Part shown: positions 6,001 to 64,000 of the stretch, piece by piece
Position numbering within the stretch: position 1 is the first letter of the stretch
How the letters are laid out: the number at the start of each line of letters is the position of its first letter
Assembly (NCBI GenBank): GCA_905250055.1
Contig: CAJNOF010000004.1
Span: forward strand, 951,250-1,015,249
Reading direction: 5' to 3'
Length of the DNA: 64,000 nt
Source: Rotaria sp.
Taxonomy: Eukaryota
The notes under the pieces: generated by a model
Databases searched by the model: none
Told to the model about the DNA's origin: nothing
Seen by the model: the letters and a program-made list of their open reading frames with translations, nothing else
Translations under genes and position numbers: made by a program

Positions 6001-8580
6001 CTCAGAAGATGAATATAACGTTGCAACGTATTCTCTTTTTTTTCTATCAGAATAATCTTATAAATATACGTGGTGATTAACATTTTACTTTTCATATCTT
6101 TTAAATATGTTTAATCTCGATGTTTCTTTCATTTGACATGTGTCAATTAATAAAGTATCTAAACTTACTTTTGTTTCTTATAATTTTTTGAAGTTATTGA
6201 ATATATTTTAAGACATCTTATATTGTATAATGCTTTTATTATATTCAAATTTAAACGTTTTTCATTTAATTTAACAATAATATGATGATACTTGGTCATA
6301 CATTTAATAGAAACTCATTTTCTCATATTTACATCAATAGACACTAGCTACATCAAGAATGCCTATAAAGCATGCTATAAATATCATATAGAAAAAAAAT
6401 GTTAAGAACGTATAAAGAAATAAATGTATAGAAATCTGACATTGTTAAAGACTTAGTCACGAAACATTTTCCTGTTTATTTGCCAAGTAGTCAGAAGTAT
6501 CCATATAGGAATAATACATAAAACTACGTCGTATTATTTTCTTTAGTAATATATATAGTTTCTATTGTGAGTCAACCACTGTTTCATTGAAAAAGTCATG
6601 TTGACAAAGGTGAACTTGCTTTCTATTTTTTTTTACAGAAATTGTCATATTTTAATTATATTATTTTCTTGAACGTTACGAAGACATTTTATTCTTATTC
6701 AGGATCAAAATATGAATAGAAAACATTATTTGATTAGGTTTTGAGTTGATAAGGTAAAACAAAATTGTGCCCAAATATAGATATCTCCAATATGTCTCAG
6801 AGCACGCACTTGTATATAGTCTTGTAAATCTATCTAATTGTTTGTTGCAAGAGCTAAAAGCAAGTGTTTACCTCATGAGAATCATCGGATCATGAGCTAG
6901 AAATGTATTCATGCAATTTTTCTTTTAATTTAGTTTTACTGTTTAGAAAATTGAATTTTTCTCTTATTCAGTAGCAAAATTAGATTTACAAAAAAAGTGT
7001 AAAATGTGTCCACATAGTTTAGTAGTTTTTTTTTATTATTGTAGCTCAATTGTAAATTAACATAGATCTTATATTCAAAATTAGTATCAAAAACTGTACG
7101 TAATAACCTATGTGTTAGTAAAAATTGTTTGTAATAATAAATACACTTGGGGGTCCTCCTCAGATTTATTTTCTGAAAATTTTGCCTCTATTTTCTCAAA
7201 GAGTCAGGTTTTTTGTTATAAAAAAACTTAAAACACATATGATTCAATGTAGTTTTTCATGCTTATTCTAAATATATTATCTATTTTAATCTACAATTGA
7301 GCTATAGCAATAAAAAAAAAACGCTACATACGAAAGAATTATTGAATTGTTTTTGTCAATCTAATTTTGTCACTGAATAAGGAAAAATTTGATTTCCTCA
7401 ACAATCAAACAAAATTAGAAAGAGACTACATGGATACGTTTCTAGTTCACGACCTGACCGTTCTAATTAGGTAAAGCACTAGTTTCTAGCTCTTGTCACA
7501 AAAAAATGATATAAATTTGTGAAACTATTTAAAAGTACGTGTCACAAGACATTTTAGATATATCCATATTTGGACAGGATTTTGTTTAACTTTATCAACA
7601 TAAAATCTAGTCAAATAGCGTTTTTCTGTTCCGTCTTTGATGCTAAGTTAGAAAATAGTTTTTTTATTAAATTCCTGTAGAAAAAAAGGCGCATATTTGT
7701 TAATGCTACATTTTTAGTCATTCAAGTTTTTTAGTTTTCTTCCCAGCGAAGTAGTGGTTGAATCAAAATAAAAATTATATATTCGTAATTAACTCGTGAA
7801 GTTGTATCAAAACATTTATAAATAAACGAGAAAAATACATGTACTAGGTTTTTGCACCGTGCGTACCTCAAATAGTTCACCAATTATCGTAGTACATTTT
7901 GATCTTAAAAATTTCTTGAATAAGAGTGTATCATATTAATCACTAGAAACTGAATAATAAGAATCAACATAAATATATTAGTTTATGATAAAGTGTATGC
8001 CTCTAGCACGAGTTTCTGTAACCTTCCAGAATCATTAATATCTAGTTTCCTCCATAGATCCGTCTTGAAAAAAAAATATGTTGTCTAATTAAACCATAAG
8101 AACACTCATGCTGTGCCAGATAGAACAGAAAAGAGAGAAAATATCATAATAAAATATTTTTCTTTGAAATAGGTTAGTATGATAAGTAAAAGGTAACAAG
8201 TCAGCTAGACATACATTTGAAATTTTCTCAAAAAAGAAAATTTTCTAATATTGTATAGAGTCATTTTAAACTTTCTACTTTTTACTTACTTTAGACAAAT
8301 CAATAAAAAGTATTTTATTGATTAGCATATCTATATAAGAATAGAGATATATAAAACAATAAATCTTTTCTATTAAAAAAACAAAAACTTGTAGGAGAAT
8401 AGATGGTTAACATTAACCAACATTATATACAAAGCAGCTATTAGTAAAACGAAGATTTATTTTCTTCGATAGTTCTGCGTAATTAGTCTTTTCTTTTTTT
8501 AAGTGCTATTTTTATGTGATTTCAAAAGTAGAATTATCAATAATTATCATCATAATCTATACGATAAATATATTTTTTCC

Positions 8581-8587
8581 ATTAGTC

Positions 8588-8618
<31 letters not shown>
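8581..8618. repeat. Poly(T) homopolymer tract, 38 nt
   Basis: An uninterrupted run of 38 T. Many other A or T runs of 10-13 nt occur across the window. Confidence 0.9.
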
Positions 8619-8624
<6 letters not shown>

Positions 8625-9046
8625 AAAGATTTTTTTAGAAAACATTAGTTTAAACTTTGACTGTAAATATTTTTTTGACATTGACAAAACTGATAAGTAG
8701 AACATATATAATTTAGTTTGGTTATTCATTATTTAATGAAAAGTATTCATAAAAAAAAAATTACCTAGAAATCCTGCAGGATATTTCATCACGTAAACTT
8801 CTAATTAATAAACGTTTCTAGGCTAATTTTATAAAGCATTTTAATGAGATATATTTTTCTCTATCATTCTATAGAAAACTTTCAACAAGAAAACAAAGAC
8901 AATATGAAGTATGTTACAAAGAAAAAAAAAATGAATGTGTCATCATAAGTTTATTCTTTTCTAAATGACGTTCTTTATTATTATTTTTTTTATAATATTT
9001 TTATTGATTATAGATTTTATTTTTTTTTTTTTTTGTTTTCCGAATA

Positions 9047-47300: not shown

Positions 47301-49037
47301 GTGACACAGTGTGAAACAACTCTATTAACTAGACTAGCTTCTACAACAAAATACAAAGTTTTGAATGAAGTCTCTTGAAGATATGAGACTTTTAAAAATT
47401 GCATGTTGTATACACAACGTTTAGGAAAGGTTCTACACCTTGAAAGTCTCATGTCATGAAGAGACTGCTCAAAACTTTTAAATCTTTTTTGAAACTAGTA
47501 TAGTTGAGTTCTGTATATGCAAAACGTCTTAGATCGAAATTCTAAAATACAAGTTATCCGAAAACATGGGATCCAGAAAATATCGACAGCTTACGAAGTA
47601 ATCTCTGTAGATACCAAATCGTGTTTTGATCAAGACGATGTTCATTTCATGAGAAATAGAAAAATCTAGAATAGTTTGGTTTTTTGGACCTTCGTTCTTA
47701 AGACGTCGATATTTTACTAAGTTTATCAACAAAAAAGCTATGATCCTTCAGACGATGTAAAAAATCAATATTTGACTTCTACTCTGTACGAACAAAGTTC
47801 GAAATAAGATTAGAAGATTGTGCAACTAGTATTTCCGTTCTAGAGATGTAAACATATGAATAAAATTTGCTTCTATATATGAAGGATTTTCAAACATTTC
47901 GATACTTTAACAATGAAGATCTGGAAGATCAAATCGTTTGCAACTTTTTTATGACTCATCAAATGAATACCATCTCGTTAGAAAATCCATTTGATACCTG
48001 GAGAGGTTTCTTCGTTAATTAATTCACTCTATATTTTTTTATATCCTTCCGTTGCTATTATTTCTAACAAAACAAATTGCAAATAATTTAATATTTAAGC
48101 AAAATTGATGTTGATTAACTATTTCAATATAGATTTACTTCGGCAGCAAATTCTACACCTGTTGGTCCACCTCCAACAACAACAAAATGGAGAAGACGTT
48201 TTCTTTCGGCTGGTGTTTGTGTTGGTGTCATGGCTGATTCAAAAGCGTCACTAATTGCTGAACGTATACGTCGAGCATCAAGAAGTTCCTTAAGAAAATG
48301 TGCATGTTCTTCAACACCTGGAGTATTAAATGTATTATTTTCTGATCCAATAGCAACAACAAGTATATCATATTTCATTTGAAATTCAGGTCGAACTCGA
48401 GCTAATTTAAATTAGAAACAAAGAAGAATAAATTTTTTCATAGAGAAAAATTTCTTCACCTGAATCTTTAATTATTCTTGATGATGCACCATCTATACGT
48501 CTTGATGGTACAAGTATTGCTTTAACATCATCACCACGAGATACTGTTTGTTCTCCATCACTATTACATGTTATAACTTTTGCTTTTGGATCTACATTAA
48601 CACAATGTGCTTCAATATATTTAACACGTGGTCCAATAAGTGAACGAATTGATTCAATGACTGTTCGAGTTTCAACTGTACCAACACTAACAGATGGTAA
48701 TAATGGTGTCATTAAAAAATAATTACGTGGTGATACACAAACAACTTCATATTTTTGAGTATCAATATGTTTTAAAAGTGGTACAGCACCCCAACCTGTA
48801 TAGAACTATTAAAATAAATAAAAGTAATTAAATTAATATTTCACCTGTTCCAAGTACAATAACACGTGGTTTAGCACCAATAGTCTTATCAGAATCACTC
48901 ATTTCATTAAACCATCGATAATGACGATAACTACGATAACCATAAAATGTACCGAGACCAACAACGGTAATAATGAAAAAATTTTTTAAACGTCGTTTTA
49001 ATTTTCCACCTAATTTAATAGAACCTTTTTTGAATCC
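44378..49037 (-). CDS. Type II (alternative, rotenone-insensitive-type) NADH dehydrogenase NDH-2 with an internal EF-hand, NDI1/NDE/NDB-like; ~7 exons incl. a 1.75-kb intron
   Basis: Exons (minus strand): ~48838-49037 (..GSIKLGGKLKRRLKNFFIITVVGLGTFYGYRS..KPRVIVLGTG, dinucleotide-binding GxGxxG), 48467-48815 (GWGAVPLLKHIDTQKYEVVCVSPRNYFLMTPLLPSVSVGTVETRTVIESIR...), 48143-48397 (..KYDILVVAIGSENNTFNTPGVEEHAHFLKEL..LLHFVVVGGGPTGVEFAAE, second GxGxxG), ~47137-47250 (LADLVREDLQTYFPRLVANDVKITLIEALDHILSMM), 46613-47075 (DKKISDY...VVWATGIKARPL...SIFALGDCATIQIPKLVDR..EEVDTEHRGALDVHQFRTLVEKKMTEFPQ), and 44378-44863 (LEVVSKSVEKAFEEADKEKSGYLTLAALRSALEKADQKIRALPATAQVASQEGRYVAGLLNKL...FQYKHMGSLAYVGGDAAVADF..RSAAYLWKSFYLTEMFTGRTKTLLAFDWVRTHLFGRDISRY*). 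ALGDCA, LPATAQVA.QEG.Y and the C-terminal membrane-anchor helix are NDH-2 signatures. The N-terminus needs a +1 correction in an A6 homopolymer (or an upstream exon) to reach ATGATG at ~49037. Confidence 0.8.
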
Positions 49038-52000
49038 AACATCATAGATTCAATATCTTAGAAATTATACAATACGAGTCTTTTAGGAAACACTGATTAG
49101 TTTAAATAAGTGTGCATCTTTTTTCTGTAATATACCATATGACATTTTTTAGAATGAACTTTTTTTTTTTTGAATCATATGCATCATATTTAGAGATACG
49201 ATAAATGCCAATAGTATTCAACAAAGATTATTTTCAATTTTCTTCTATTGTGGTGAACGCTAGAAAGAGTTCAAATAGTGATTCGAATAGAAAAAATGAT
49301 TTTTCAACAAGAATATGAAGAAAGAAAAATTATCATCATATTCACAAAGATAGAGATTTTAGAAAATCAAAAACCTAGTTTTTCAACATCTAGAATACGT
49401 CAATATAATTTTGTTTAGACTGCATAGAACAATAGAGTAAACTTTTTTGCGACATTTTTTTAGCTGAGATACAGTAATCTTATGCAAGCTTATAAAGTCA
49501 GTTTTTTCAATTTCCGATAGCAAAAGCATTTTTTGACCTTGAATCGAATTGCTCTATCTAAGTCATAAAACATCGTGAAGCACTCGATGATGTCTCATTT
49601 TGCAGAAAATGGTTTTTATTTCTATGTATTCTTGTTTCAAATCATTTTCTCCATAGGAGTCCCTATAGGAATCCTTTTTAACGCTTACGACAATGAAGAA
49701 AGATTGAAAATAAACAATTACAGGATTCACTGTAAATACTAGCGCCCGTCGGATTGAAAATTTTTGGACCTAGTCGAACTATACTTTGATACTCTCAATA
49801 AAATTTTCTAATCGAAATCGGATATTCTCTCCAAAGATACGACATAGTTCTTTCTGGTTTCTTTATATTCGTTAATTAGCATATCATATAAATTTTTCAG
49901 ACGAGTAGAGCCGGTCGAGTTCAAAATTTTTGGACCTACTTGAGTTCGGAACTAACCTGACAAGCTGTAGTATATACAAAACTTTGCAAAAAAATTTTAA
50001 AACTTTTAGAAAAATTTTTTATTCACTTTTTTTTTTATAGATAGAAAAATTCTATACAGTTAGATTTTTGAAAATTTCTCACGAACCAAAAGTTTCCTTG
50101 CGTGATTGTTCAGAAAACCAAGCAAGATTTCGATTAATAATAGGTTTTATTTGATTTAATTGTTTAAATGATAGATTTCGACGTGAATTTATTGTTGTTA
50201 ATTGTTGAAGAAATTGTGTTGATCGAGAAAACATAATTAATTTTGAGAAAAATTCAGATCTTTGTTTTAATACGATGGGATTTTATTTGACGCAAATAAA
50301 TCAAGAAAAAAAAGATATTGAATACTTGATATTTTCTATTTGTCTATATTTACTTCAATCAAAATACAAGTTCACCGCCATCTTTTGAAAAATGCAAAAG
50401 AAAATATATGAATGGTTAATTACATTGATTTATATGCTTCTATAAAAAAAATTCTATACAATCAACTAGTAACTTAGAGGCCAATGTTATGGTCAAATAT
50501 AGCCAAGTTGGTTAGAGTATTAAAACAATGTATATATTCATGTTCGAATCTATCTCCTAGAGTATGTTACTCAATGATGATTTTGAAATGTTTGATCAAC
50601 TTAATGAAACATTTTCAATAATTATCTGCCTTTCTTGGACTGAGAGTAACAATAATATTTGATTCTTTTTTGAAAAGAATTTATTTATTGATAGTGAATA
50701 AAAAAAAACAACTTTTGTAGACGATAAATATTATTAAAAAAATTCTATCTACAAAATATCCTTGTCTATATAAATTGACATGAACTTGTAAAATATTTTC
50801 TATTAAGAATGTTCAATTTTTTTCTGTAGTAATTTTTAATTACGAAAACAGATATTAAAAAAATTTTATTTTTAGCTATTAAATCATTATTAAAAATAAT
50901 TTAATATGAAATTTAGTTGCTTCATATTTTATGGAATCTTGTTGACAAGAAATACAAACATTTGATGAAATACAAATGATTCTATTTATCCTTTTGTAGT
51001 GTGTCCAGTTTCATAGAATTCTATTAATCTTCATTTATTTTACAAGGTCTTTAAAAAAAAAATCATCTTCGAGATAAATCTCGTGAAGAAAAAACTTATT
51101 TATTTTCATCTCTATTCAGATGAAATTTCTAGTCAAATCGAATAATGACTGTATAATGTAGTAGTATCGATGTTCGAATCTACCTTCGAGACTAGAGTCA
51201 GGGATGTCTCTTCATTAATGGCACATAACTGTTCATGCTCTCGATATATTATATATTATCAACAATTGATAACCAAACATTCGAAGATCAATATTCATCG
51301 AATGATTTATCTTAAATTGTTGAACAAACATCTATATTTTATTATTTAAAATATCAAAAACAAAAAAAAAACACCTACAGAGATACCGAAGATATTTTTT
51401 AAAAAAGAAATTGTAACACTTATTGATATGATATAATAAGTTTATTGATGATAAATACGAGAGTTTCAAAGGTATAATAAATAAAATATAAAATCATCTT
51501 AGCTATGTATTAAATCAAACACGACTAATCGAGGTTCGTGCGAGTCCTAGCTAGTCTCACCACATTATTATAAATATACAATAGTAAATAGAACCGTTCG
51601 TCATCCAGATATGCTCTAGTGAAAATTAGTAGAGTATGCTGATAATATTTGCTAGCTACATTCAACGATTATTCATGTAAGCAAACCATCTTGAAGGATA
51701 TATCAATGCTTGTTGTCTACAGTGGGCTCCCTTAGACTCCATAAAAATTCATTGCTATATGAAGCATTCATAACATTTATTGTTACCATGTGCTTCTAGC
51801 TATACGTTCGGGTTACTTACGAGGTAACCTCTTTAAGTGCTCTCTGCCGATACCAGTACTTTTTGCCTATAGATACTATATAGAATTCTTCAAGAATGTG
51901 AGTTGCTATTGAGTTTTTAGTATGTCTATATTTTTGGATCTAGATTTTCGGAAAAATCATATTGTCGAGTTTTGATTTGAAACTTTGTGCATATAGAGAA

Positions 52001-53570
52001 CTCAAACGAATGTATTTTCCATCGAAAAAAAATCCGTAATTTTTTTAAAAATCTGTTCAAAAACTTCTGGTTGTTCTTTAGAAAGTTAACCTAATTGAAC
52101 TCTCTATATTGATAAAGTTTCAAATCAAAATTTGAAACTACGAGTTTTCTGAAATTCTGAAGTTCTCTAGAAAATAGACATATTGCAAAGTCAATAGCTT
52201 AGTTAAAGCTCAATAGGAATTAACATCCTTTTAGAGTTCTATGTAGTATCTATAGGCAAAGAATCATTGAAATCGGTAAGAGACAGGTGCAGAAATTTCC
52301 TGGTTAGTACAGTAGATTGATAATATCTATCAATCATACGTAATTATTCGTCTTATGCAAAACACTTATAAATATATGTGAATACTGAATAACGATGCTA
52401 TTTTGCTGTTTATTCTTCTTCAAACCAAGTCTTCACAGATCCATGATAAACTAGTCATAATTTCGTTTATTATATTTATTTTATCAAACAGGATCTACAG
52501 AGATCTCAAGTAAACAATAAGTGATAGTTCGGAACTTGTTCGTGTTACGGTTCATTGATTTTATGAATTATACAAGCTATTTTGTCGATAAAAGAATAAT
52601 CTTGTAGTCAAATATAATAATCAAACAAATGATCTTTTTTGTGCAAACTAGATTTTATCTTATGGTTAACAATTCAAATCAGAATGTTTATATTGTTGGA
52701 CGAAGTATAAAATCTTGATTTACTATAGACTTGATTCTTATTTATCTTGAGTAAGCAGTGAAAATTGTTAATAATATAAACAAATCTATTTTACAGCAGT
52801 GTACTGTATTATTAGCAAAAATTTGTCTGAGCATCAAAGTAGAAATTATCATTTATCGTTCTTTTAAACATGTCTCTTTTATCTGATTTACTCAATTAAT
52901 GTGGAAGTATCTGATTTTATGGCATTTCTGATGTTTGAAATTACTTGTGTAGAAAATAGAAACAAAAACAGTTTATTATTGAAACGCAGATGACACTATT
53001 AGCCAAAATGGTACGGAATAGTGTGATGATGTTCTTCTCGCTCTCATCTACTCACATCTGCACTCAAAAAAAAAAACAACAGGTGTGAAACATTTGCATA
53101 ACTCAAGGTACTTTGTTCAACAGGATTATTTCCGTTTTTTTTTAACTTGGTTCTTTATAAAAAGAAACCATTTTTCTTTCTTATGAATTTAAATTCTATA
53201 AATGACAAAAAAATATTGATTCCGTTATCGTTCACTAAACAATAATTTGTACTATTTCAACGTTTGAATACGTCAACATTTTTAACTTTTAATATATTTT
53301 TGCATTTGGGCATACTTGTATTCCGACATTTTTATTGATTGGCATTTAAATTGTTTGACATTTTTCTATTCGATCAGAATAGAAGTTATCTTTCACCTAT
53401 CTATTATGAGTATGGAACTATAAATAATCGATTCAATACTTTTTGTGCGCTTAAAAACAAAACAACAATAGGATTTTTAACTTAATATAAATAAATTTTT
53501 CTCAATATCAAATGGCGCTTAAACTATAATAGTTATTTGTCATTTAAATTTCTTTTTTTTTGTCTCAGTT

Positions 53571-54711
53571 ATGTTATTGTTTTATCTAATTTTTTTCTTA
53601 TTCTCGAATCGAATTCATGCAAGAAATGATAGTACGGAATTTATACCAAAACTTGAAGATTTATATCCATTACCTAATAATGATCAAATCGAAATAATTG
53701 CTGCTCAATTTCATCAAAATCCGAACTGGGAACAAGGAAATATGCATATGTCATTAACTGAAGTTGAAGAAACAACACCAAATCAACCTATTTCTCGAGA
53801 ACCGCAAAACAGACCAGGAATATATAAAACAGGTCATAATTATCGTCCTGGAGAAATGCATCCATATCGTATTGATCATTATGGTGTTCATCCTCATTCG
53901 AAACATCATATATTTTTCGTTCGACATGGTAAATTGAAATAAATAAAACACTAATAGACAGAAAAAAAAGGATTTTTGTTTTATTATTTGTTTAATTCTT
54001 CAGGAGTATATTTCTATACAGAAGATGAACCAAATGCACATTTACTTCGTTATGGAAAATATCAAGCTCGTATGGCAGGTTATAAAATCAATCAAATAAT
54101 ACATGGATTAATACAAAGATTAGGTCCTTTGACAAAACCAATTAAATTAGTATCAAGTACACAAACACGTGCAATTGAAACTCTTTATAATATTCGTTTA
54201 CAACTTAGTAATAATCTTCAATTTGAAACAACATTTATTCAAGATACTGGTCTTAGTGAATGCGTGTATAATTATATATTTAAAAAATTGATTTATTTAA
54301 CATTAAAAAACTTATATCATTTTTTATTTTTCTTAGTGATTCAGCTAAACAACGTGTTCGTTGGCTTTATTTTGTTCGTGAATATTTACAACCACTTAAA
54401 TCAAATCAACCTGAACATTCAATAACAATTATAGCTAGTCACGGAAATATTTTAACGGCGTTTAGTCATATTATTAAAAATTTTCTTCTTAGACGAAGAC
54501 CTCCGGCAACATTTCCAACATTTGATCTTCCTCAAGGAACTGGTTTAGCACATGGTGATACATTGTATTATTCTTCTAATGGAGCACAACCAATTCAGTT
54601 ACAACAGATTATTCATATGAATGAAATTCCAATAACGGTCAATCATGCACACTTAAGAAAAGATTTTTATTATGAATGGGCTGCTATGCATCAATGCAGA
54701 GTAAGTGAAAC
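53571..54711 (+). CDS. Secreted histidine phosphatase superfamily (branch 1, PGAM-like) unit 1; 3 exons; probably continues into the 55919-59212 unit
   Basis: Exon 1 53571-~53930: MLLFYLIFFLFSNRIHA (signal peptide) ...HPHSKHHIFFVRHG (RHG motif; donor gtaaat, phase 1). Exon 2: VYFYTEDEPNAHLLRYGKYQARMAGY...PIKLVSSTQTRAIETL...DTGLSEC. Exon 3: DSAKQRVRWLYFVREY...HSITIIASHGNILTAF (second His motif) ...YYEWAAMHQCR, followed by a consensus donor gtaagtg rather than a stop. Confidence 0.7.
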
Positions 54712-55918
54712 GACAAAGGATCGATGATCTATCGCAAATCAACAGATCATTTTAGAATTAAGCTACAATCAGGCTAGATGCATTCAAATCATATGGAATT
54801 TTCAGCCCTATATCATGATGTTTTCATGAAATATTCAATAAATAAAGTTTAAATATAGTTCATTTAGTAATCGAAAATTTACTGTGTGCCTTCATTGAAG
54901 ATTGAGGATGACAAGTTTAATAACTTAAAAAGTGATGGCGTATGTATACAAGACCTTTTTTTTATATATAAATAAGAGAGCTTGATTCAAAAACCGGATA
55001 CTGCAGCTTTACATGTTCTTTTAAACAAACAATAATTAAATGTATATAATGAAGGCATATATAGAAATTTGAGATGAAATATAAACAGAGACAAAAAAAT
55101 TCAAAAAGTATTTCCTGCTTTTTCTAAACGAAACAAAGATGTTTCAAGTAGGAAGTGATGAAAACCATCAAAAAAAGCGAACATTCATGCACTTATTAGA
55201 GATGTATAGGCTAAGCTTTTCCCACACCCTGTAAAACATCTATTCAGTCCAGATTGTCGATATTTTTTTAGAGATGGAAGAGACTACAACTTCTGCAGAG
55301 AATGCTTGTATCCCAGGTCGCGTGTTTTCTTATTTTTATCTCATTTTCTTCCAGAGAACATTTAATAGTGTCTTAAAGTTCGACTCCTGTCAAAAATTAC
55401 TATGAAGTTGTTATAAGAAAAGGACAAAAATTATTACAAATTTCCGCAGGAAGTCGAATATTTCGAGAGGAGATAAGCGATCTCCCTAATCAAGAACTCT
55501 GACCCAGTCAGACAGAATATTCTTACCTTGTCTTTTTTTAAATAATAACCTAATTGGAAGACTGTACAAGTAAGAAATAATATCGCACTATAGATGTGTA
55601 GGGTAAGTTTTGTTCGTACTCTGCATCTTGACGAAGAAAAATTTCCTAATCCTTACTTAACTGTACTCTGATGAGGGGAAGGAAGTATTATATCTCCAAC
55701 TCCACAACAGCATTATAAAAAAAGACTTGGATTGTTTCAAAATGTTTTAATGATTTGTACACATCGATAAGAAAAACTTATCAAAAGAAAAGCTGTATTA
55801 TTAAGTGGCTCAGAAACAGATGGATTCTAATATATGAATTTTTCAACGAACTATTTAAAAACAAAAACATTTTTGTATGAAATAAGATTTTGTTTTTTTT
55901 TGTTTCTCTCATTGTAAG

Positions 55919-58900
55919 TCGTATCATGGTCGTGCCAATATGAGAAATTATATTCAAGCAGGTCTCATTGATAATATATTTGGTAAAGATTATTTTCAAA
56001 ATAAAATGAAAAACTATGAAAGTATTGTTTATATGGAATTAAAATATGAATATGCTACACATATATTACCTATGATGTTGCATACATGTCGTAGTTATCT
56101 TTATCGTCTACCTTTTATTCAAGCAAATACAGATTTTGAATCATTTAATCGTTTAATGTCACCTATACCTGTTCCAGCAACACTACAAGAACAAAGTTCA
56201 AGATTAACAATACCATTATATCAATTTAGTGCATATGGTATGCCATTTCGAGTCGATAATCGTATACAAAAGTTTCGAAAAAATCCAATAATGAGTCGAC
56301 AATTTGTTTCACCTGATAGTGTTCATCCAGAATCACGTATATTGCTTTTCTTAATTCGACATGATAAGTAGATATTACATAATATAGAACAAAAAATATT
56401 TTCTTTCTTTTTCCGATATTCTACGTCTTAATGTCAATACAGGTGATGAAAAAACATCATATTTAACACGTCTTGGTATTAATCAAATACGTGGTATTAT
56501 GTCACAAATACATCATATCATTCATTTACATAAAGAAAAATTACCTGAAGACGGTCATATATTTCCAGTGACTATAGCAGCTGATCCAACAATTCAATCA
56601 GCTGAATCATGTTTTCATGTGCGAAGTCTTTTACTCAGTGCTAACTATACGGTATCAGAACAAGTTACTGATCTTGGACTTCAATATAATTACTTTGGAA
56701 AAAGTATGAACATTTTTTGCAGTGTAGTGGAAAAGCGTTGCTCTCTTCTCATATCTCACCTACTATGCATACTAGAGATTTGAAAATCTATGGATATCTA
56801 CTCCACTAACGAACAAAGATCTCCAAGTGATAAATTACTTTCGAACTGGGACTATATTCTATCGATAGAGTCTAGTGAGTAGATAAATACTCGAGAGGGG
56901 TTCAAGTTGCTGAACTTTTGTTACTGAGATTTCGAATTTTTAGTGAATGTGTGTTTAAGGCCTCAGTTTTCAAGCGAATTTATACTTTTGCACTTGAAAA
57001 CGAGGTTCCCATAGGAGAGACTCACTGAAAATTGGATATCTTAACAACAAAAGCCCCCATAGCTCGATTCACTCACTTTTGGATATTTATTTACTCACCA
57101 GCACCTATCGATTGAATATAGTTTCAGCTTAAAAGCAATTTGTCATTTGAGAAACGTCCTTCGTACACATGTAAATCTGAGATACGAGCTTATCTCAATT
57201 GTTTAGATGGATCGAGAATTATGATGAAAGGCAATGAATAGCATACGTTGAGCCTTTTAACTTCACAGCTCTAAAACAAAAAGAGGAACTTTGTGAATCA
57301 ACCCATTTTTTATCATTGTGTGATTTGTTCAATTTAGCTACTGTATTATATGGTTTCATTGAAGTTCATCAATCCTTCATAGAATTATCATCATTTTTCT
57401 ATCAATATTCTTAGGGGACAAACTATCTGCTGGCTTTTTGAGACTATCACTTAATAATAGTTCAGTAAATAGACTTGAACTGTATACATAAACTTTGTCT
57501 ATAGTTAGCGTATCATAAAAGAACCCTGCACTAAATGAAAATTCCATCCGAATACAGAGGACTCAGAGACAGTAATCTTCGATTAAATCAGCAATTCTTT
57601 TGACTAAAAGAAAACATAGACTAGATTCTACTTTCACAATAAAATATCAGTGATTAATCATGCACTTGATAACAAGTAACGAAAAATTTAGTAAACAATC
57701 TTTTTCGAAGCTAAAAGCTTGACGCAAAAGTAGGCGCTGTTTATCATAATTCTCGTTTTCTCTAAGGATACACCCTTCTTTGTTGACCATTTTCAGTTTT
57801 CGAAAACAGTACAATCGATCTACTTGCAATTAACTGGTTTTCCATCGGGCTGTATCCTAGCTATCCAAGACATTTCATCTAACTTTGTGCCATCGGACTG
57901 AAATTTTTACCACTGATACTTGGAAAAATTCTTCAGAGGTGCAATCGATCTTTTTCATTTTTGACTTTTCTATCCAAAATTACAAGATTAATAAAAGCCA
58001 AGACCTCCGTTTTAGCATCGAAACTTTACGTATTTTTCTCATAAAATTTTGGAGAAGCTTAAGATTACTTAGTCTTAGAAATCTAAGATTTGCTAACGGA
58101 TCTTATGCAAATAGTATATGACCCTCCATATGAAAACCAGAGTTTCTTAGATAAATGCCACAAAAACCTATTTCAAAGATTTTTCTTGAATACGAGTCTC
58201 TTTATTTTCGGTGTAAAAAATCCAACTTGATCAGTCGTGCCGCCTTCAAGAATCAGAAACGGTCAAAAAAGAGGAGCGGAGTATTCTTAAGTAATTGGGA
58301 CGACCTTGTGCTTTTGAACTAAATTATTTGTGTAGTATATGCATACTAAGTTTCAAACCATCAACATGTATAGTAGCTGAGATGTGGAAGGCGAAAAACT
58401 TTTTTTCAGAGATCTTTTTATTAATTCTTTTTAAAAAACACAAGTTTTGTTTCTTTGAAGAAACTACGGCTGATATGATTGATTTTCAACGAGTACAAGC
58501 TCTTTATATGTTACGTCATTATCTTATACCAGATGAAACTGATTCAAAACGTCCATCATTACAAGTTCATATTTTATGTGGTGATGGTCGTTTATTTACA
58601 GCATTTCGTCAAGAAATGGCTTTAAATAATCTTCTTATTCAACCACATCAAAGATTTTCAACACTTAGTGATCCTTATTATAATGCATTGAAACATGGCA
58701 ATGCATTATTCTTTGAAGCTATTGGTCATGAACTATTAAAACTTCATAATGCTTTAGATTTACTAGGATCAAGAAATATATCTGATGAACAAAGAATAGC
58801 AACGGATCAACCACTTCAATTGACAGCACTTGATTTACAATATTGGTTTCGAAGTCGATATGGTCCTTGTACATTAGATTATTTTCTTCAAAATAAAGAA

Positions 58901-59212
58901 ACCTTATCATTATCAGTCACCAATACAGGTTCCATGTATCAAAAATATATTGCTCGAATAATTCGAAAAGAATGGAATCCATATCTTGCTGGTAGTATAA
59001 TATACATTTGTTGTTTCTATTTTTTAATGAAAAATAAAAACATTTTTGTAGGATTATTTATTTATTCATGTCGTCTTCAACTTACATTAACAAGTGGTTC
59101 TAATCAATGTGAACAACAAGCAGCAGGAGCCGGAGCTATTGCAAATGAAGCTGTTGCCCAATGTCGAGAGCAAAATACAGCTAGAGGAGGACCTTTTGGA
59201 AATTGTAGCTAA
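55919..59212 (+). CDS. Histidine phosphatase superfamily unit 2 (tandem duplicate of unit 1), catalytic motifs degenerate; 4 exons incl. a ~1.7-kb intron
   Basis: Exon a 55919-~56365: (SYHGRAN)MRNYIQAG...FVSPDSVHPESRILLFLIRH-D/G (compare unit 1 GVHPHSKHHIFFVRHG). Exon b ~56450-56708: (G)DEKTSYLTRLGINQIRG...VTIAADPTIQSAESCF...LGLQYNYFGK. Exon c ~58471-58994: KTTADMIDFQRVQALYMLRHYL...SLQVHILCGDGRLFTAF (the SHG His motif of unit 1 replaced by GDG) ...KEWNPYLAG. Exon d ~59055-59212: GLFIYSCRLQLTLTSGSNQCEQQAAGAGAIANEAVAQCREQNTARGGPFGNCS*. The acceptor cattgtaag|TCG at 55918/55919 is in phase with the unit-1 donor after HQCR. Confidence 0.6.
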
Positions 59213-60457
59213 ATGAAAAGTGCTTTAATGATACGTTTCTTTTCGGTTTATTTATTTATTTTATTTGTATGAAATTTTTCGAGAATAAATTAATTTAAAA
59301 AAAAATCGTTCGGATCTCTCTCTCTTTTTATATATTATAAAATTAAATTTGCATGTCATTATTGTTCGTGGTTCATTATATAGTCGAGACCGGATACATC
59401 GATTTTCTCACGACATGATATGTCCTTCAAGTTCGACGACAAAAAAAGAAAAAGAGTTGTTATTGTTGTTGTTAAATGATATAATCATGAGGCAGTAACA
59501 TGTTAGCCAATTTTCTGAACCGATTACATCAATATAAACAAAAGTATCTTTTTGCAATTGTGTCAATTTCATACTCATCATTCTTCTTTTTTTTCTCACT
59601 ATCACATCTGTTCGCTATATGACATAAGGAGTTAAGACATGTTCAAGTATTTGCAGCCATCGTCCATGCAATTATTATCTAGTTAACATACATACACGCA
59701 TTCTCTTTCATTCACTTACTAGTCGTGCAATCGACATTGGAAACGAAATGCAAATTTTGTTTGACAGAGATTAAAATTAGGTCATCATATGACATAAAGA
59801 AAGGACCTTTGCTTGATTATCATCATCAACATCATTCGATGAACAGCATACAGTACTTTTGAAGTGACCTTTTCTCTTTCTTTTTATTCTATTCATGATC
59901 TATGCTTTCACATAATCAAGAGCAATCTGTCTGTATATAAGTGAAATTGAAAATAATGAATTTTATATTATTTCAATTAGTCTTTATGTTCAATGAGTTT
60001 TGACTAGACGATAAAAACATGGTCCGTTTTTGTTTCTTTTTTTTTTATGAACAAAAGAGATTCATTTTTCTGATAACATATATGAGATGGCACAACTCAC
60101 GTACACGTGGATGATTTTTTCTAATTAATGTCGTCGACAGTCATTTATCCATGCTTGACCGATTTGTCAAGGATCAGCTTAATGGACTATTTGAGAATAT
60201 AAGATCTTTTGTTCATTTGTAGACATTCAAATAATTCATGTGTTTTTTCTTTCATCTGACATTTTATTAATTTTCTATACATACTGTTCATGAAATATCG
60301 TTTCTCTTTTTTTTCTAACACTTATAAACAATAAAAAAAACAAAAAGAAAAAATTTTATTGAAGAAATTTTTCGATTAGAATCATTGGATAATAAAGCAC
60401 TTGCACGTTGATCTGTTAGAATATCTAAAGCAAAACAAATTTTTTAGTCGAATATAA

Positions 60458-61252
60458 TCAATCAATTTTACCTTTTTCAACAATAACTTTTGCAGTAAGT
60501 CGTTGATGTTTATAAACACATGTCCATATACCTGTATGATATATTTGTGCATGATTAATAATTAAATGTGAAGTTAAAATATTATTAAATAATTTTTTTT
60601 TAATATGTACATCATGAGGTTTTGTTTTATTTAATTGATTTGATAAAAAATGCCATGTTATTGATGATCTATTATAATCAATATCATTCATTAAAATACT
60701 ACAATTTAATTTAATATTTGTATTTGGTTCTACATAAATATGTGTAGGATGTATAATCATTGGTATTTGTATATGTAAATGTATATATATACTAACACTT
60801 GCTTTTCGATTAGTAATTTTACATATATATGTACCTTCATCAGATAGTTTTATTTGATAAATTTCTAATGACCAAAATGAATCTTTTATTGATGTTGAAT
60901 AAAATGATATTGAATAACGTTTATCAGTTGTAAATAATTGTTTCCCAACAGCTAATGGTGATGATATAGATGTATATGGATCTATTTTAAACCACGTTAC
61001 ATGATATTCACCTAAATCACGTATATGACAAGTCAATATAGCTGTAGAAGATAAATTTAATGTTTGATTATGTGTTTCAGTAATGATTTGTGGAAATATC
61101 TTATTAGCTGTTGTTATTTGTATCATTAAAATAACTGAAGAAAGAAAAAAAAAATTAGTTTTTATTCATCAAGGAAATTCAAAGCTTTTTCTCTTGTGGG
61201 AATAACTTACGGAGAATAAATAAAAAAATATGTTTAATAATGATAAGAATAT
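60458..61252 (-). CDS. Secreted/membrane protein with two immunoglobulin-like domains (5' part; further 3' exons below 60458 not resolved)
   Basis: Exon 1 ~61203-61252: MNNILIIIKHIFLFIL (signal peptide; donor gtaagt). Exon 2 60458-61136: ..LTCHIRDLGEYHVTWFKID...LEIYQIKLSDEGTYICKI (Ig domain 1: C..W..D.G.Y.C) and ..LNCSILMNDIDYNRSSITWHF...HLIINHAQIYHTGIWTCVY (Ig domain 2). It ends ..VIVEKG with a donor-like gtaaaattg. Confidence 0.6.
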
Positions 61253-61506
61253 TGTTCATTGTTAAAGGATTGAAAATCAAACATCACTTGTATTTTTAAT
61301 TGATTTTTTATTTGATATCACGTATGATATTTGTTTATATTCGATTGTGTAATAAGGCAACTGTCGTTTTCTTTTATAACTAGAACATGTTGGTACTAGT
61401 AGATCAATGAAACAACGTATACAAAAGAAGACGATTGTAGATTATGCTTCTTCTCTCTTTATAACGATAAGGGAAAGGCGACATGGAAAGAGAAGGAGAG
61501 CGAAAC

Positions 61507-61526
61507 ACAGAGAGAGAGAGAGAGAG
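61507..61526. repeat. (GA)n microsatellite
   Basis: cagagagagagagagagagaaaag, about 9 GA units. Confidence 0.8.
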
Positions 61527-64000
61527 AAAAGAAAAATAAACTTAGACTAATGGAATTAGGAATAAAGAGAAAAGATATCTAGCTTAGCTATGACGATTAA
61601 AGCTGGTGAAACAGAGCGACTTACACAAGAACAATAAATAGAATATTTATTGCCTCTTGTTCAAAAGGGATTTTTAGATAATCAAAAGAAAGATCAAACA
61701 GAGTGCATACAAATAGAATAATGACACTTTTCATTGTTTCTCAATTTTTTAACATAAACGATCTTTTACCAGGTGATTTTATCATTGAATAGATCACACC
61801 ATCACATACTTCATTTTCTTCATGCAATTAGTTTTCCTACTGTGCGTGAGTGAAGTGACAAATACACTTATTACTTCTGATTCTACTGGTACTCTAGAAA
61901 ATAAAGAGAAAATGAGGACGCACTATCGTGAATGCATGTCTATTCGAGTCAATTCGATTTTGACGCTCTTGCACTCACTCTTTGACTCATACCAATAGCA
62001 GTGCCTGTCACTGACATACTAAGTTATTGAGAATCATCATATGACAACGTCAAATTGATTTCTTCTATGAAACGTTCTTTTATCATACTTACTCAAGGAA
62101 AAAAAACAAATATGATTATACATGCTTACAGGTTATACCTTATAGCGACTAGTTCATAATTAAAGAAGTGTTGAACGATGAATAGCAAATCAAGGTTCTT
62201 TTTTTTTCTTTTCACTTTGATTCTTAAGCGTCAATATTAATAATAGATCAATAGCTCAAAGACTGTCAATAAAGAAAAAAATAATTACATAGTTGGTATT
62301 ATTTTTTTATTTGTTTGCAATTTCGATAAGACTTAAACTCGATCAATAGTAATAACAAAATAGAAATATCAAATACTCTTTATTGGCATGTGCAAGACAT
62401 TTGTGATGGTGATCAAGCACGTCAAAGAAACTAATGTGAACAAGATGAGCATAAACATTATACAGGAAAAAAAAGAGAAAATGTAATATAGGATGATCAA
62501 TGGTCAAGTATTATTCTAGTCTAAACCGATAAGAGACATGCCATATTGTACAGTGTATGATCTCTTGAGAAGTTATATTGTCTTGTTTTTGTTACGGATG
62601 ATATAAACAACAGATTGAATTTAATTAGATTGAGACGTTCCTGTATCGTAGAGAAATATCTCATAAGAAAAGAAATATCATATATAGAAATGAGTGTGTG
62701 TTTTTTTTCTATAGAAATACATCAGTTTTGTAGAATGTATTAAAGCGATGATTTCTGCATGACAAGAAGTGAACTATTATTGATGGTGAAGCTTCAATTG
62801 AATGATATAGTCACTCATTACAGCGATGTCTAAAATGACCTTTTTAATCATTCAGACAAATATTTTCCTCTTAATTTAAAATGCTCTAAAGTTGTCTGGT
62901 GACATTTAATTGGTCATATATTTTAGTAGAAACAAAATGAAATTAATTTTCAACGGAAACTGATTTTTGTTGTGTCTTTAATAAGGTTATTCGAAAATGA
63001 TAAACAAGGAATCAAATAAGATATTGATTATGCATCGTTTGACATCATCGAATTGATTTGATCTCGTTTCATCGATACTTTTTATTCAGTAGTATTTTAT
63101 GAGAAAAAAAAGTTCATCTTTGTATGAAAGAAAGTTATTGTGATGATTCAATAGTTCATAAGAGAATAACAACAAAATGTTAATGTACGTTTTTATCAAT
63201 TTTTTTTGATCATCAAATTTACTATAAATGAAAATAAATATGAATGTGCCTTCTCATGAGGTCTTCTTTTCACTCACATCCCTAAGTAACTGTTGAGTAG
63301 CTTTAAATATTGTTCTATATTCTCGTTAAAATGTTACAACTACCAGTGGCTTGCAATGAAATGCTTACTGATTACCAACTGGTTTGCATTAACTATATCA
63401 AACAACAGCTTCAAAAGAACAACAAATTCGCGACAAAAATATAACCCTCAAGACAGTCTACTGATATGTCTGTTTAGCATTTCTATATCGAAAACTCAAC
63501 CGAGTAATAAGGATAGAAAATGTTAACATTATCTTCAAAATTTCAATGATTATCATCGATTTACATCAGAAGCTCGCTCAATTGTTTGAATATGTGATCT
63601 ATACGAAGGCATTGTAAATAGTATGTCGAGGTTAACATCTGATACTTTCAAAAACGGAGAAGATATGCAGTTATATCAGTGATCTCATTTCAATCAACAG
63701 TTTCGTGTAAACTACTAGTAATAAAGAGATAGCGTATAACTTTCTTTTAACGTTCAACGAAGAGCAAACAATGGAAACTCTAGCAATTTTATTTAAATTG
63801 ATGCTTGGTATTGAAACTGTTCAAGAAATGAACATACTATTTTTAGACATATGCAATCTAAGTTCATATGAATATGAAGAGAGAATTTTGTTAAATATAT
63901 TTACAGAATGTTGGATTAAAAAAATCAATCAGCAGTCATATGCACGAGTTATGGTGATCATCTACGACCATAGGTTTTACTTTTCAATTATCTTCATTGT

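What the first reader, a model, noticed from the sequence alone, without database searches (positions are those of the whole stretch)
53571..59212. Tandem histidine-phosphatase units, probably one two-domain gene whose second domain has lost catalytic residues
Unit 1 has a signal peptide and intact RHG and SHG histidine motifs. Its last exon ends with a consensus donor (HQCR|gtaagtg) rather than a stop. An in-phase acceptor (ttgtaag|TCG at 55918/55919) leads into unit 2, which repeats the whole architecture (compare GVHPHSKHHIFFVRHG with SVHPESRILLFLIRHD) but with the SHG motif replaced by GDG. At the RHG|intron junction of unit 2, the donor is ATAAGTAG instead of GTAAGTA. That is either a non-canonical or U12-like splice, or a sign of decay. 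If it is one gene, it encodes a secreted active phosphatase domain fused to a degenerate pseudo-enzyme domain and a Cys-rich tail.
Basis: partly seen in the sequence, partly recalled or inferred. Interest (0 to 1): 0.55.

Follow-up and report, generated by a model that had tools for sequence, protein, structure and literature searches.

The report
Two-domain rotifer phosphatase gene, AT-AC intron
This is one bdelloid-rotifer gene for a secreted protein with an intact histidine-phosphatase domain fused to a catalytically degenerate copy, and the odd "ATAAGT" splice site is a real, rare AT-AC intron conserved in eight lineages that has caused most public annotations of this gene to be wrong.

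Summary
The window is Rotaria sp. Silwood1 and 53571-59212 (+) is a single 7-exon gene encoding 799 aa. It has a signal peptide, a PGAM5-like histidine-phosphatase domain with all catalytic residues, a linker of about 130 aa, a paralogous second domain (hhalign 99.1%, E 5e-19) and a Cys-containing tail.

The one-gene reading is supported by comparison. In eight bdelloid-type loci the inter-unit donor and acceptor keep their position and phase. In six of them this intron is only 55-122 nt, and unit 2 has no conserved start codon.

The second domain keeps R-H-G but has lost the second Arg and the second His (SHG to GDG/GEG) in the six named species. The nucleophile His is Asn in three lineages. 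The domain is nevertheless open and constrained, so it is a pseudo-phosphatase, not decay.

One correction. The non-canonical intron is AT-AC (56364-56424, 61 nt), not AT-AG. G|ATAAGT...YAC|G is present in all eight loci, and the 18 nt it restores encode a conserved L-N-V-N-T-G that closes the gap against domain 1. It has U2-type features, not U12-type.

No transcript was examined directly. This is a clean new example of known kinds and an annotation fix.

The parts
53571..53928 (+). Exon 1. Start codon, signal-like N-terminus (53571-53621), N-terminal region, and the R118-H119 codons of the domain-1 RHG motif. The Gly codon is split in phase 1.
   Evidence: Identical to the Rotaria sp. Silwood1 model P0119.
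53929..54003 (+). Intron 1 (75 nt, GT-AG). It sits at the same position and phase within RHG as intron 4.
   Evidence: Conserved in 5 of 6 species; absent in R. socialis and in environmental locus L007.
54004..54265 (+). Exon 2. Domain 1, including Arg175 (TQTRAIE, 54159-54179) and Glu205 (LSEC).
54266..54336 (+). Intron 2 (71 nt, GT-AG).
   Evidence: The junction was corrected from homologues (GLSECVDSAKQR).
54337..54700 (+). Exon 3. Rest of domain 1, including His242 (ASHGN, 54434-54448). Ends ...HQCR.
54701..55918 (+). Intron 3 (1218 nt, GTAAGT...AAG, phase 0), the link between the two units. If it is retained, an in-frame TGA at 54725 ends the protein.
   Evidence: donor and acceptor are conserved in all species; the intron is 55-84 nt in four species and 1067 nt in R. 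sordida. No ORF, Rfam hit or repeat.
55919..56363 (+). Exon 4. Linker/N-terminal extension of domain 2, the first beta-strand, and R475-H476 of the domain-2 RHG.
56364..56424 (+). Intron 4 (61 nt), AT-AC with a U2-type-like 5' splice site: ATAAGTAG...TTCTAC, phase 1. If retained, the reading frame gives RHDK then a stop.
   Evidence: The same termini occur in 8 lineages. U2 donor match 5/6, U12 donor match 3/8, no U12 branch site, 68-84% pyrimidine in the last 25 nt.
56425..56703 (+). Exon 5. Starts GT CTT AAT GTC AAT ACA GGT, which completes Gly477 and encodes LNVNTG (56427-56444). Includes PTIQSAE, where the second catalytic Arg is replaced by Gln.
   Evidence: R. sordida models contain RHGLNVNTG.
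56704..58460 (+). Intron 5 (1757 nt, GT-AG, phase 1).
   Evidence: It is 52-56 nt in other genera and 1588 nt in R. sordida, with 70-76% identity to the window.
58461..58991 (+). Exon 6. Rest of domain 2, including CGDGR (58577-58591), where the second catalytic His is Asp.
58992..59051 (+). Intron 6 (60 nt, GT-AG).
59052..59212 (+). Exon 7. C-terminal tail with four Cys (C753, C766, C784, C798). Stop TAA at 59210-59212.

Best explanation
53571-59212 (+) is one protein-coding gene of the bdelloid rotifer Rotaria sp. Silwood1, with 7 exons and 799 codons.

Protein. It enters the secretory pathway through an N-terminal signal peptide (inferred from sequence). Domain 1 (about residues 105-328) is a divergent PGAM5-like member of the histidine-phosphatase superfamily, branch 1. 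It retains the full catalytic set (Arg118, His119, Arg175, Glu205, His242), so it most likely hydrolyses a phospho-ester through a phospho-His119 intermediate. The activity is inferred and the substrate is unknown.

Domain 2 (about 461-747) arose by internal tandem duplication before Adineta and Rotaria diverged. It keeps the fold and the R-H-G strand but has lost the second Arg (to Gln/Pro/Ala) and the proton-donor His (to Asp/Glu) in the six named species. In some lineages it has also lost the nucleophile His (to Asn). It is still open and constrained, so it is most likely a non-catalytic partner domain. My inference is that it takes the place of the second subunit of the dimer that PGAM-family enzymes normally form.

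Gene structure. The intron that splits the Gly codon of RHG in domain 2 is a 61-nt AT-AC intron with U2-type (major-spliceosome) signals. Its paralogue at the same position in domain 1 is an ordinary GT-AG intron. Because gene finders demand GT/GC-AG, public models either truncate the protein at RHDK*, split the gene, or delete the RHG strand.
For: Identity.
- P0119 (Rotaria sp. Silwood1) equals the window translation except at intron 4 and one donor choice.

One gene.
- The junction table shows all six introns conserved in position and phase in six species.
- Intron 3 is 55-84 nt in four species, 58 and 122 nt in L007 and L010, and carries a consensus donor directly after the Cys-Arg/Lys codon.
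- The Met after the junction is ATC in A. ricciae and absent in L010.
- Reconstructed orthologues give open 799-810 aa frames.
- Flanking genes are syntenic.

AT-AC intron.
- G|ATAAGT...YAC|G is present in 8 lineages while the intron interior is not conserved.
- In A. ricciae no GT/GC-AG join within 90 nt is in frame and stop-free.
- The 18 nt after AC encode L/I-N-V-N/D/A-T-G with third-position changes, and they fill the 6-residue gap against domain 1.
- Four of six full-length R. sordida models contain RHGLNVNTG, which only the AT-AC junction can produce. Those models came from same-species RNA-seq, STAR and BRAKER (PMC7943196). AUGUSTUS accepts AT-AC only as a hinted splice site (and my own knowledge), so this is indirect RNA support.

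Fold.
- AlphaFold model with domain cores at pLDDT 80-94.
- Foldseek top hits are PGAM5 (E 1e-7, TM 0.6-0.7), and all listed PDB hits with E <= 0.001 are histidine-phosphatase-superfamily structures.
- The profile search reaches PGAM5-like His_Phos_1 proteins.
- Domain 1 against domain 2: hhalign 99.1%.

Catalytic residues: alignment.

Constraint: dN/dS is 0.44-0.57 in domain 2 and 0.22-0.68 in domain 1.
Against: - No transcript or junction read was examined for any species. Scans of JGI metagenome contigs for the spliced junction 4 and for a control junction 6 both returned nothing, so they are uninformative.
- R. socialis, R. magnacalcarata and A. ricciae were also annotated with their own RNA-seq, yet their models do not use AT-AC.
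- Pfam His_Phos_1 is below the gathering threshold for domain 1 and absent for domain 2. Domain 2 has no sequence-level PDB hit.
- The Foldseek output does not say which domain was aligned.
- Inter-domain packing is unreliable (pTM 0.47), so the 'intramolecular dimer' role is conjecture.
- dN/dS is fairly high throughout, so constraint is moderate.
- Enzyme activity, secretion and substrate are untested.
Confidence: 0.82

Rival explanations
1. Two separate cistrons. Unit 1 ends at the TGA 8 codons past HQCR. Unit 2 is translated from the Met at 55940, either from its own promoter inside the 1.2-kb spacer or as the downstream gene of an SL-trans-spliced operon (bdelloids do trans-splice).
For: - There is a stop at 54725 shortly after the donor, and AATAAA motifs lie in the spacer.
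- A Met follows the acceptor in six of the eight loci.
- The 1218-nt spacer in this species could in principle hold a promoter.
- SL trans-splicing in bdelloids is known to me from the literature; it was not checked here.
Against: - A consensus GTAAGT/GTGAGT/GTACGT donor sits exactly after the conserved Cys-Arg/Lys codon, and a phase-0 acceptor is kept in all eight lineages.
- The spacer is only 55-122 nt in six of them.
- The Met is ATC in A. ricciae and absent in L010.
- The six codons between acceptor and Met are open and similar (S-x-H/Y-G) in all species.
- Unit 2 has no signal peptide of its own.
- Public models in five species are fused.
Confidence: 0.06
2. Unit 2 is a decaying duplicate. 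The G-to-A change at the donor is an inactivating mutation, and the real product ends at RHDK* (478 aa), or intron 4 is skipped through the nearby GT-AG pair as in the Silwood1 model.
For: - The retained intron gives an immediate stop (RHDK*) in most species.
- A. vaga and R. magnacalcarata models end there.
- Catalytic residues are lost in domain 2.
- A GT...AG bypass exists in Rotaria and A. steineri and is used in many public models.
Against: - The same A is present in 8 lineages down to about 40% protein identity.
- Everything downstream (about 320 codons over three exons) stays open, with conserved splice sites and dN/dS 0.44-0.57.
- The bypass donor and acceptor do not exist in A. vaga or A. 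ricciae.
- The 15 codons the bypass would delete change mainly at synonymous sites.
Confidence: 0.05
3. Intron 4 is a U12-type (minor-spliceosome) AT-AC intron, or an AT-AG intron as first proposed.
For: - AT-AC termini are most often U12-type in animals (Sheth 2006).
- Bdelloids retain a few minor introns (PMC10639083).
- An AG lies 18 nt downstream in Rotaria and A. steineri.
Against: - The 5' splice site matches ATATCCTT at only 3 of 8 positions in all eight lineages, but matches GTAAGT at 5 of 6.
- The best match to TCCTTRAY is 5-6 of 8, at variable distances.
- A polypyrimidine tract is present.
- The AG is absent in A. vaga and A. ricciae.
- AT-AG would delete six conserved codons and reopen the 6-residue gap against domain 1.
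Confidence: 0.04

Closest known systems
PGAM5 and PGAM5-like proteins (histidine phosphatase superfamily branch 1, Pfam PF00300; PDB 3mxo, 5muf, 6cnl, 3eoz)
   Same: - Best structural matches (Foldseek E about 1e-7, TM 0.6-0.7).
- Best sequence matches outside the family.
- Shared motifs: hIFLIRHG, SSxxTRAxET, L-x-E, xxCHGNv.
- The catalytic pentad is intact in domain 1.
   Different: - Has a signal peptide instead of a mitochondrial anchor.
- No WDxNWD multimerisation motif.
- Tandem active plus degenerate domains in one chain, with a linker of about 130 aa and a Cys tail.
- Sequence similarity is below Pfam's threshold.
- Apart from PGAM5-like outliers, hits were recovered only from bdelloid genomes and unassigned environmental contigs: 53 hits in 1.84 billion representatives, nearly all fragments of this same family.
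U2-type ('type II') AT-AC introns, e.g. human SCN4A/SCN5A (Sheth et al. 2006, PMC1557818)
   Same: - AT and AC termini combined with an otherwise strong U2-type 5' splice site (ATAAGT).
- A polypyrimidine tract and no U12 signals.
- Borders conserved over long evolutionary distance.
   Different: - Found in a bdelloid rotifer gene. A full-text search for 'bdelloid' together with 'AT-AC' returned no description of such an intron.
- Very short (51-64 nt).
- It has a GT-AG paralogue at the identical codon position in the same gene.
- Dependence on the major spliceosome is inferred from sequence only.
Tandem catalytic plus pseudo-catalytic domain proteins (e.g. receptor tyrosine phosphatase D1/D2, JAK kinase/pseudokinase)
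   Same: An internal duplication gives an intact domain followed by a conserved copy that has lost key catalytic residues.
   Different: - A different fold and chemistry (histidine phosphatase).
- The order and role of the domains are untested.
- The comparison comes from my own knowledge, not from a tool result.

Membership tests
Histidine phosphatase superfamily, branch 1 (domain 1) | RHG motif with a nucleophile His after the first beta-strand | tested here: met
   FFVRHG (R118, H119). Invariant in six species.
Histidine phosphatase superfamily, branch 1 (domain 1) | Second Arg, acidic Glu and second His of the phosphate pocket | tested here: met
   R175 (TQTRAIE), E205 (LSEC) and H242 (ASHGN) align with LRAQET / LLDE / VGHGN of the PGAM5-like protein P0065. 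Invariant in six species.
Histidine phosphatase superfamily, branch 1 (domain 1) | Score above the Pfam PF00300 gathering threshold | tested here: not met
   15.2 bits against a cut-off of 21.7. Five of six orthologues hit, with best E 0.0053.
Histidine phosphatase superfamily, branch 1 (whole protein) | PGM-like alpha/beta fold | tested here: met
   AlphaFold model with domain cores at pLDDT 80-94. All listed Foldseek PDB hits with E <= 0.001 belong to this superfamily, with PGAM5 on top. The output does not say which domain was aligned.
Histidine phosphatase superfamily, branch 1 (domain 2) | Homology to a bona fide member | tested here: met
   hhalign of domain 1 against domain 2: 99.1%, E 4.9e-19, 192 columns. 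The order of beta/alpha elements in the model is the same. No direct Pfam or PDB sequence hit.
Histidine phosphatase superfamily, branch 1 (domain 2) | Complete catalytic residue set | tested here: not met
   - Second Arg is Gln/Pro/Ala in six of six named species.
- Second His is Asp/Glu in six of six.
- The nucleophile His is Asn in A. ricciae, L010 and P0009.
- The acidic position is ambiguous in the alignment.

U2-type AT-AC (type II) intron | AT...AC termini at a junction that restores the conserved reading frame | tested here: met
   56364-56424. The same termini occur in 8 lineages, and this is the only junction that keeps all conserved residues.
U2-type AT-AC (type II) intron | 5' splice site fits the U2 consensus except at +1; polypyrimidine tract present; no U12 5' splice site or branch site | tested here: met
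   GTAAGT match 5/6, ATATCCTT match 3/8, best TCCTTRAY match 5-6/8 at variable distance, 68-84% pyrimidine in the last 25 nt.
U2-type AT-AC (type II) intron | Actually spliced at these sites, by the major spliceosome | not testable with these tools
   Only indirect evidence: RNA-seq-hinted R. sordida models carry the junction. No reads were available, and the JGI scans were empty.
U12-type AT-AC intron | /ATATCCTT 5' splice site and a TCCTTRAY branch site 10-20 nt from the 3' end | tested here: not met
   all eight lineages.
Operon / separate downstream cistron for unit 2 | A conserved independent start codon, and no requirement for a cis-splice donor after unit 1 | tested here: not met
   The Met is missing in A. 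ricciae and L010. The donor and the phase-0 acceptor are conserved in all.

The most novel reading that the evidence does not exclude
The AT-AC intron may be more than a neutral oddity. Two readings are not excluded.

(a) It is a fossil of a U12-type intron that shifted to the major spliceosome in a lineage that has almost lost minor splicing, while its duplicated twin in domain 1 went all the way to GT-AG.

(b) It is a conserved, inefficiently spliced switch. Retention gives an immediate in-frame stop (RHDK*), so the gene could produce either a short secreted enzyme (domain 1 plus linker) or the full enzyme-pseudoenzyme protein.

Either reading would suggest that bdelloid genomes hold more conserved U2-type AT-AC introns hidden behind mis-annotated genes.
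Probability: 0.12. Interest if true: 0.6.

Novelty: new member of a known kind. Interest (0 to 1): 0.38.

Why it matters
Annotation. It corrects a gene model that is wrong in most public bdelloid annotations. The gene is split in A. vaga, and the RHG strand is deleted in Rotaria sp. Silwood1, R. socialis, A. steineri and A. ricciae.

Splicing. It adds a deeply conserved example to a very small class: U2-type AT-AC introns were 24 of 610,067 introns in five model species (Sheth 2006). It also comes with a built-in control, a GT-AG paralogue at the same codon of the same gene. That makes it a handy natural substrate for asking how terminal dinucleotides co-evolve.

Protein. It defines an unannotated, fast-evolving secreted enzyme/pseudo-enzyme family, so far found only in bdelloid genomes and bdelloid-like environmental contigs, that was derived from a PGAM5-like fold.

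Tried and rejected
- Pfam on each unit: below threshold for unit 1, nothing for unit 2.
- PDB sequence-profile search: only weak PGAM5/3eoz hits for domain 1 (E 0.002-0.18) and nothing meaningful for domain 2.
- My first exon 2/3 junction guesses were wrong twice and were fixed from homologues.
- AFDB Foldseek library was not available.
- Long introns 3 and 5: no ORF over 80 aa, no Rfam match, no repeats in the window, only orthology to R. sordida. Origin unresolved.
- A junction-spanning peptide search found only genomic exon fragments and no cDNA-derived ORFs.
- JGI metagenome scans for the spliced AT-AC junction and for a control GT-AG junction were both empty, hence uninformative.
- P0064, a single-domain relative, is intronless at RHG and so says nothing about the ancestral intron type.

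Rejected readings: AT-AG, U12-type, a pseudogenised unit 2, and two separate cistrons. Reasons are given under the rival explanations.

Full report
**What the window is.** The region is AT-rich (about 28-32% GC) and has short GT...AG-bounded interruptions typical of a eukaryote. Homology searches place it in bdelloid rotifers. The Rotaria sp. Silwood1 model P0119 (CAF0772337.1 and others, 785 aa) is identical to the window translation except at two splice choices. The window is therefore Rotaria sp. Silwood1, and the gene is publicly annotated only as 'unnamed protein product'.

**Checking the observation.**
- ATG at 53571 followed by a hydrophobic signal-like N-terminus.
- RHG and SHG motifs in unit 1.
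- A GTAAGT donor directly after ...HQCR at 54700|54701.
- A phase-compatible acceptor at 55918|55919.
- A second unit that is a true paralogue of the first (BLASTP 26% identity over 209 aa, E 5e-16; hhalign on ortholog alignments 99.1% probability, E 4.9e-19, 192 columns).
- GDG in place of SHG.
- G|ATAAGTAG in place of a GT donor at 56363|56364.
- A stop at 59210-59212.

Two caveats apply. An in-frame TGA lies only eight codons beyond the HQCR donor, so the sequence alone could not decide between 'splice' and 'stop'. The exon 2/3 junction also had to be set from homologues (54265|54266 ... 54336|54337, giving GLSECVDSAKQR).

**One gene or two.** I fetched the orthologous loci of A. vaga, R. 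sordida, R. socialis, A. steineri and A. ricciae. I also fetched two more divergent environmental bdelloid-type loci, L007 and L010. All are syntenic: an NDH2-like gene lies upstream on the minus strand and an Ig-domain gene downstream on the minus strand.
- The junction table shows all six introns at the same position and phase in the six named species.
- The inter-unit intron always begins GTAAGT, GTGAGT or GTACGT immediately after the conserved Cys-Arg/Lys codon and ends AAG or TAG in phase 0.
- That intron is 55, 56, 65 and 84 nt in R. socialis, A. steineri, A. ricciae and A. vaga. It is 58 and 122 nt in L007 and L010, and 1067 and 1218 nt only in R. sordida and the window.
- The Met that follows the acceptor is ATC in A. 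ricciae and is absent in L010.
- The six codons between acceptor and Met stay open and similar.
- Spliced at the conserved sites, the six named species give uninterrupted 799-810 aa frames with a signal-like N-terminus.
- Public models in five species are already fused proteins of 735-790 aa.

I take the single-gene reading as well supported. An occasional short isoform ending at 54725 cannot be excluded.

**The odd splice site.** The A at donor position +1 is not an error or a recent lesion. All eight lineages read G|ATAAGT.

That AG does not exist in A. vaga or A. ricciae, which read ACTGGC there. What is shared by all eight is YAC|G, 18 nt further upstream: TTCTAC|GT in the window, 56419-56426.

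Using it gives a 61-nt AT-AC intron (56364-56424; 51-64 nt in the other lineages, the usual bdelloid intron size). It adds the codons CTT AAT GTC AAT ACA GGT.
- Across species these codons read L/I-N-V-N/D/A-T-G, with changes concentrated at third positions (CTT/CTC/CTG, GTC/GTT, ACA/ACT, GGT/GGC). In L007 and L010 the final Gly is Asn and Glu.
- The six residues exactly fill the 6-residue gap that BLASTP had opened against domain 1: RHGVYFYTEDEPNAH against RHGLNVNTGDEKTSY.
- The upstream GT donor used by the Silwood1, R. socialis and A. steineri models (which deletes xLLFLIRHG) is missing in A. vaga and A. ricciae. The nine codons it would remove also evolve like coding sequence.
- In A. ricciae no GT/GC-AG combination within 90 nt joins the exons in frame without a stop.

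**Type of intron.** In all eight lineages:
- The 5' splice site matches the U2-type GTAAGT at 5 of 6 positions and the U12-type ATATCCTT at 3 of 8.
- No TCCTTRAY branch site is present at a fixed distance.
- The last 25 nt are 68-84% pyrimidine.

This is the definition of a U2-type ('type II') AT-AC intron used by Sheth et al. 2006 (PMC1557818). They found 15 in human, 6 in mouse, 3 in fly, and none in worm or Arabidopsis (0.003% of introns). Bdelloids are reported to have lost nearly all minor introns (PMC10639083).

The paralogous intron at the same codon position of domain 1 is GT-AG in the species that keep it (five of the six named species and L010). It has been lost in R. socialis and L007.

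**Transcript support is indirect.** Four of six full-length R. sordida models from independent assemblies contain RHGLNVNTG. On that DNA only the AT-AC junction can produce this sequence. Those models were made with same-species RNA-seq, STAR and BRAKER 2.1.2 (PMC7943196). AUGUSTUS accepts AT-AC only as a hinted splice site (option named; that it requires a hint is my own knowledge).

Against this, R. socialis, R. magnacalcarata and A. ricciae were also annotated with their own RNA-seq and did not get the junction. A junction-spanning peptide search found only genomic exon fragments. JGI metagenome scans for the spliced junction 4 and for a control junction 6 were both empty.

**What the protein is.**
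- Pfam His_Phos_1 is sub-threshold for domain 1 (15.2 bits against 21.7; five of six orthologues hit, best E 0.0053) and absent for domain 2.
- A family profile searched against 1.84 billion representative proteins found only 53 hits. Nearly all are fragments of this same family. Then come PGAM5-like proteins with bona fide His_Phos_1 domains and WDxNWD motifs.
- An AlphaFold model of the R. sordida protein has domain cores at pLDDT 80-94 (overall 65, pTM 0.47).
- Foldseek against the PDB puts PGAM5 first (E about 1e-7, TM 0.6-0.7), and every listed hit with E <= 0.001 is a histidine-phosphatase-superfamily structure.
- Both domains show the same beta-alpha-beta-alpha-beta-alpha-beta-alpha-beta-beta order in the model.

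Catalytic residues:

| Position | Domain 1 | Domain 2 |
|---|---|---|
| First Arg | R118, six of six named species | R475, kept in all eight loci |
| Nucleophile His | H119, six of six | H476, but Asn in A. ricciae, L010 and P0009 |
| Second Arg | R175, six of six | Gln/Pro/Ala in six of six |
| Acidic residue | E205, six of six | Ambiguous in the alignment (an Asp/Glu aligns) |
| Second His | H242, six of six | Asp/Glu (CGDG/CGEG) in six of six |

Domain 2 is nevertheless open in all lineages, rich in invariant residues, and has Nei-Gojobori dN/dS of 0.44-0.57, comparable with 0.22-0.68 for domain 1. The whole gene evolves fast. There is no transmembrane segment. There are 10 Cys, seven of them invariant, and four N-glycosylation sequons.

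**Mechanism, with shown and inferred steps.**
- Shown: gene structure, the duplication, the pattern of catalytic-residue loss, and conservation of the AT-AC termini.
- Inferred: secretion; phospho-His catalysis by domain 1; a non-catalytic role for domain 2, possibly standing in for the second subunit of a PGAM-type dimer; and removal of intron 4 by the major spliceosome.

The result is a new member of two known kinds: a divergent histidine phosphatase paired with a pseudo-phosphatase, and a U2-type AT-AC intron. It has practical value as an annotation correction and is a neat natural GT-AG/AT-AC paralogue pair. It is not a new kind of system.

Noticed in passing
window 54701-55918 and 56704-58460: Introns 3 and 5 are 1218 and 1757 nt, 20-30 times the size of their roughly 55-nt orthologues in R. 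socialis and Adineta. The expansions are shared with R. sordida (70-76% identity) and so predate the split of those two species. They have no ORF over 80 aa, no Rfam match and no repeat within the window. In R. sordida part of intron 5 matches in inverted orientation. Their origin is unknown (old transposon remnants?).
   Followed up: partly
L003 (R. socialis) 4372-4376; L007 2780-2784 and 4309-4322: Intron 1, the GT-AG twin of the AT-AC intron, has been lost precisely in R. socialis and in environmental locus L007. L007 has also lost intron 5, yet the AT-AC intron 4 is retained in every lineage examined.
   Followed up: partly
L001 (A. vaga CP075497) 6001-7602 and 7766-8777: The 2021 A. vaga annotation splits this gene into two models (UJR37133.1, 449 aa, ending RHDK*, plus a 297-aa model) exactly at the AT-AC intron. 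The Silwood1, R. socialis, A. steineri, R. magnacalcarata and A. ricciae models each work around it differently.
   Followed up: yes
window 58985-59055: The Silwood1 public model uses a donor 3 nt downstream (CTGGTA|GTATAA), giving AGRLF. All other species support AG|LF (donor 58991|58992). This is a tandem-donor ambiguity.
   Followed up: partly
window 48000-53570 and 59213-64000: The flanking genes are syntenic in all eight loci: an NDH2-like Pyr_redox_2/EF-hand gene upstream on the minus strand and an Ig-domain gene downstream on the minus strand. tblastx shows strong conservation starting within about 100 nt of the stop codon.
   Followed up: partly
whole CDS 53571-59212: Nei-Gojobori dN/dS is unusually high for an enzyme: 0.44-0.75 between the window and R. 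sordida, in all regions including the intact domain 1. This suggests relaxed or diversifying selection on a secreted protein.
   Followed up: no
L011 (GCA_905250885.1, CAJNOQ010003938.1) 468-1036: A single-domain, intronless relative (P0064, 188 aa) with intact RHG, RAIET and CHGN motifs sits between this family and PGAM5-like proteins in the profile search (E 2e-8). Its species and role were not determined.
   Followed up: partly
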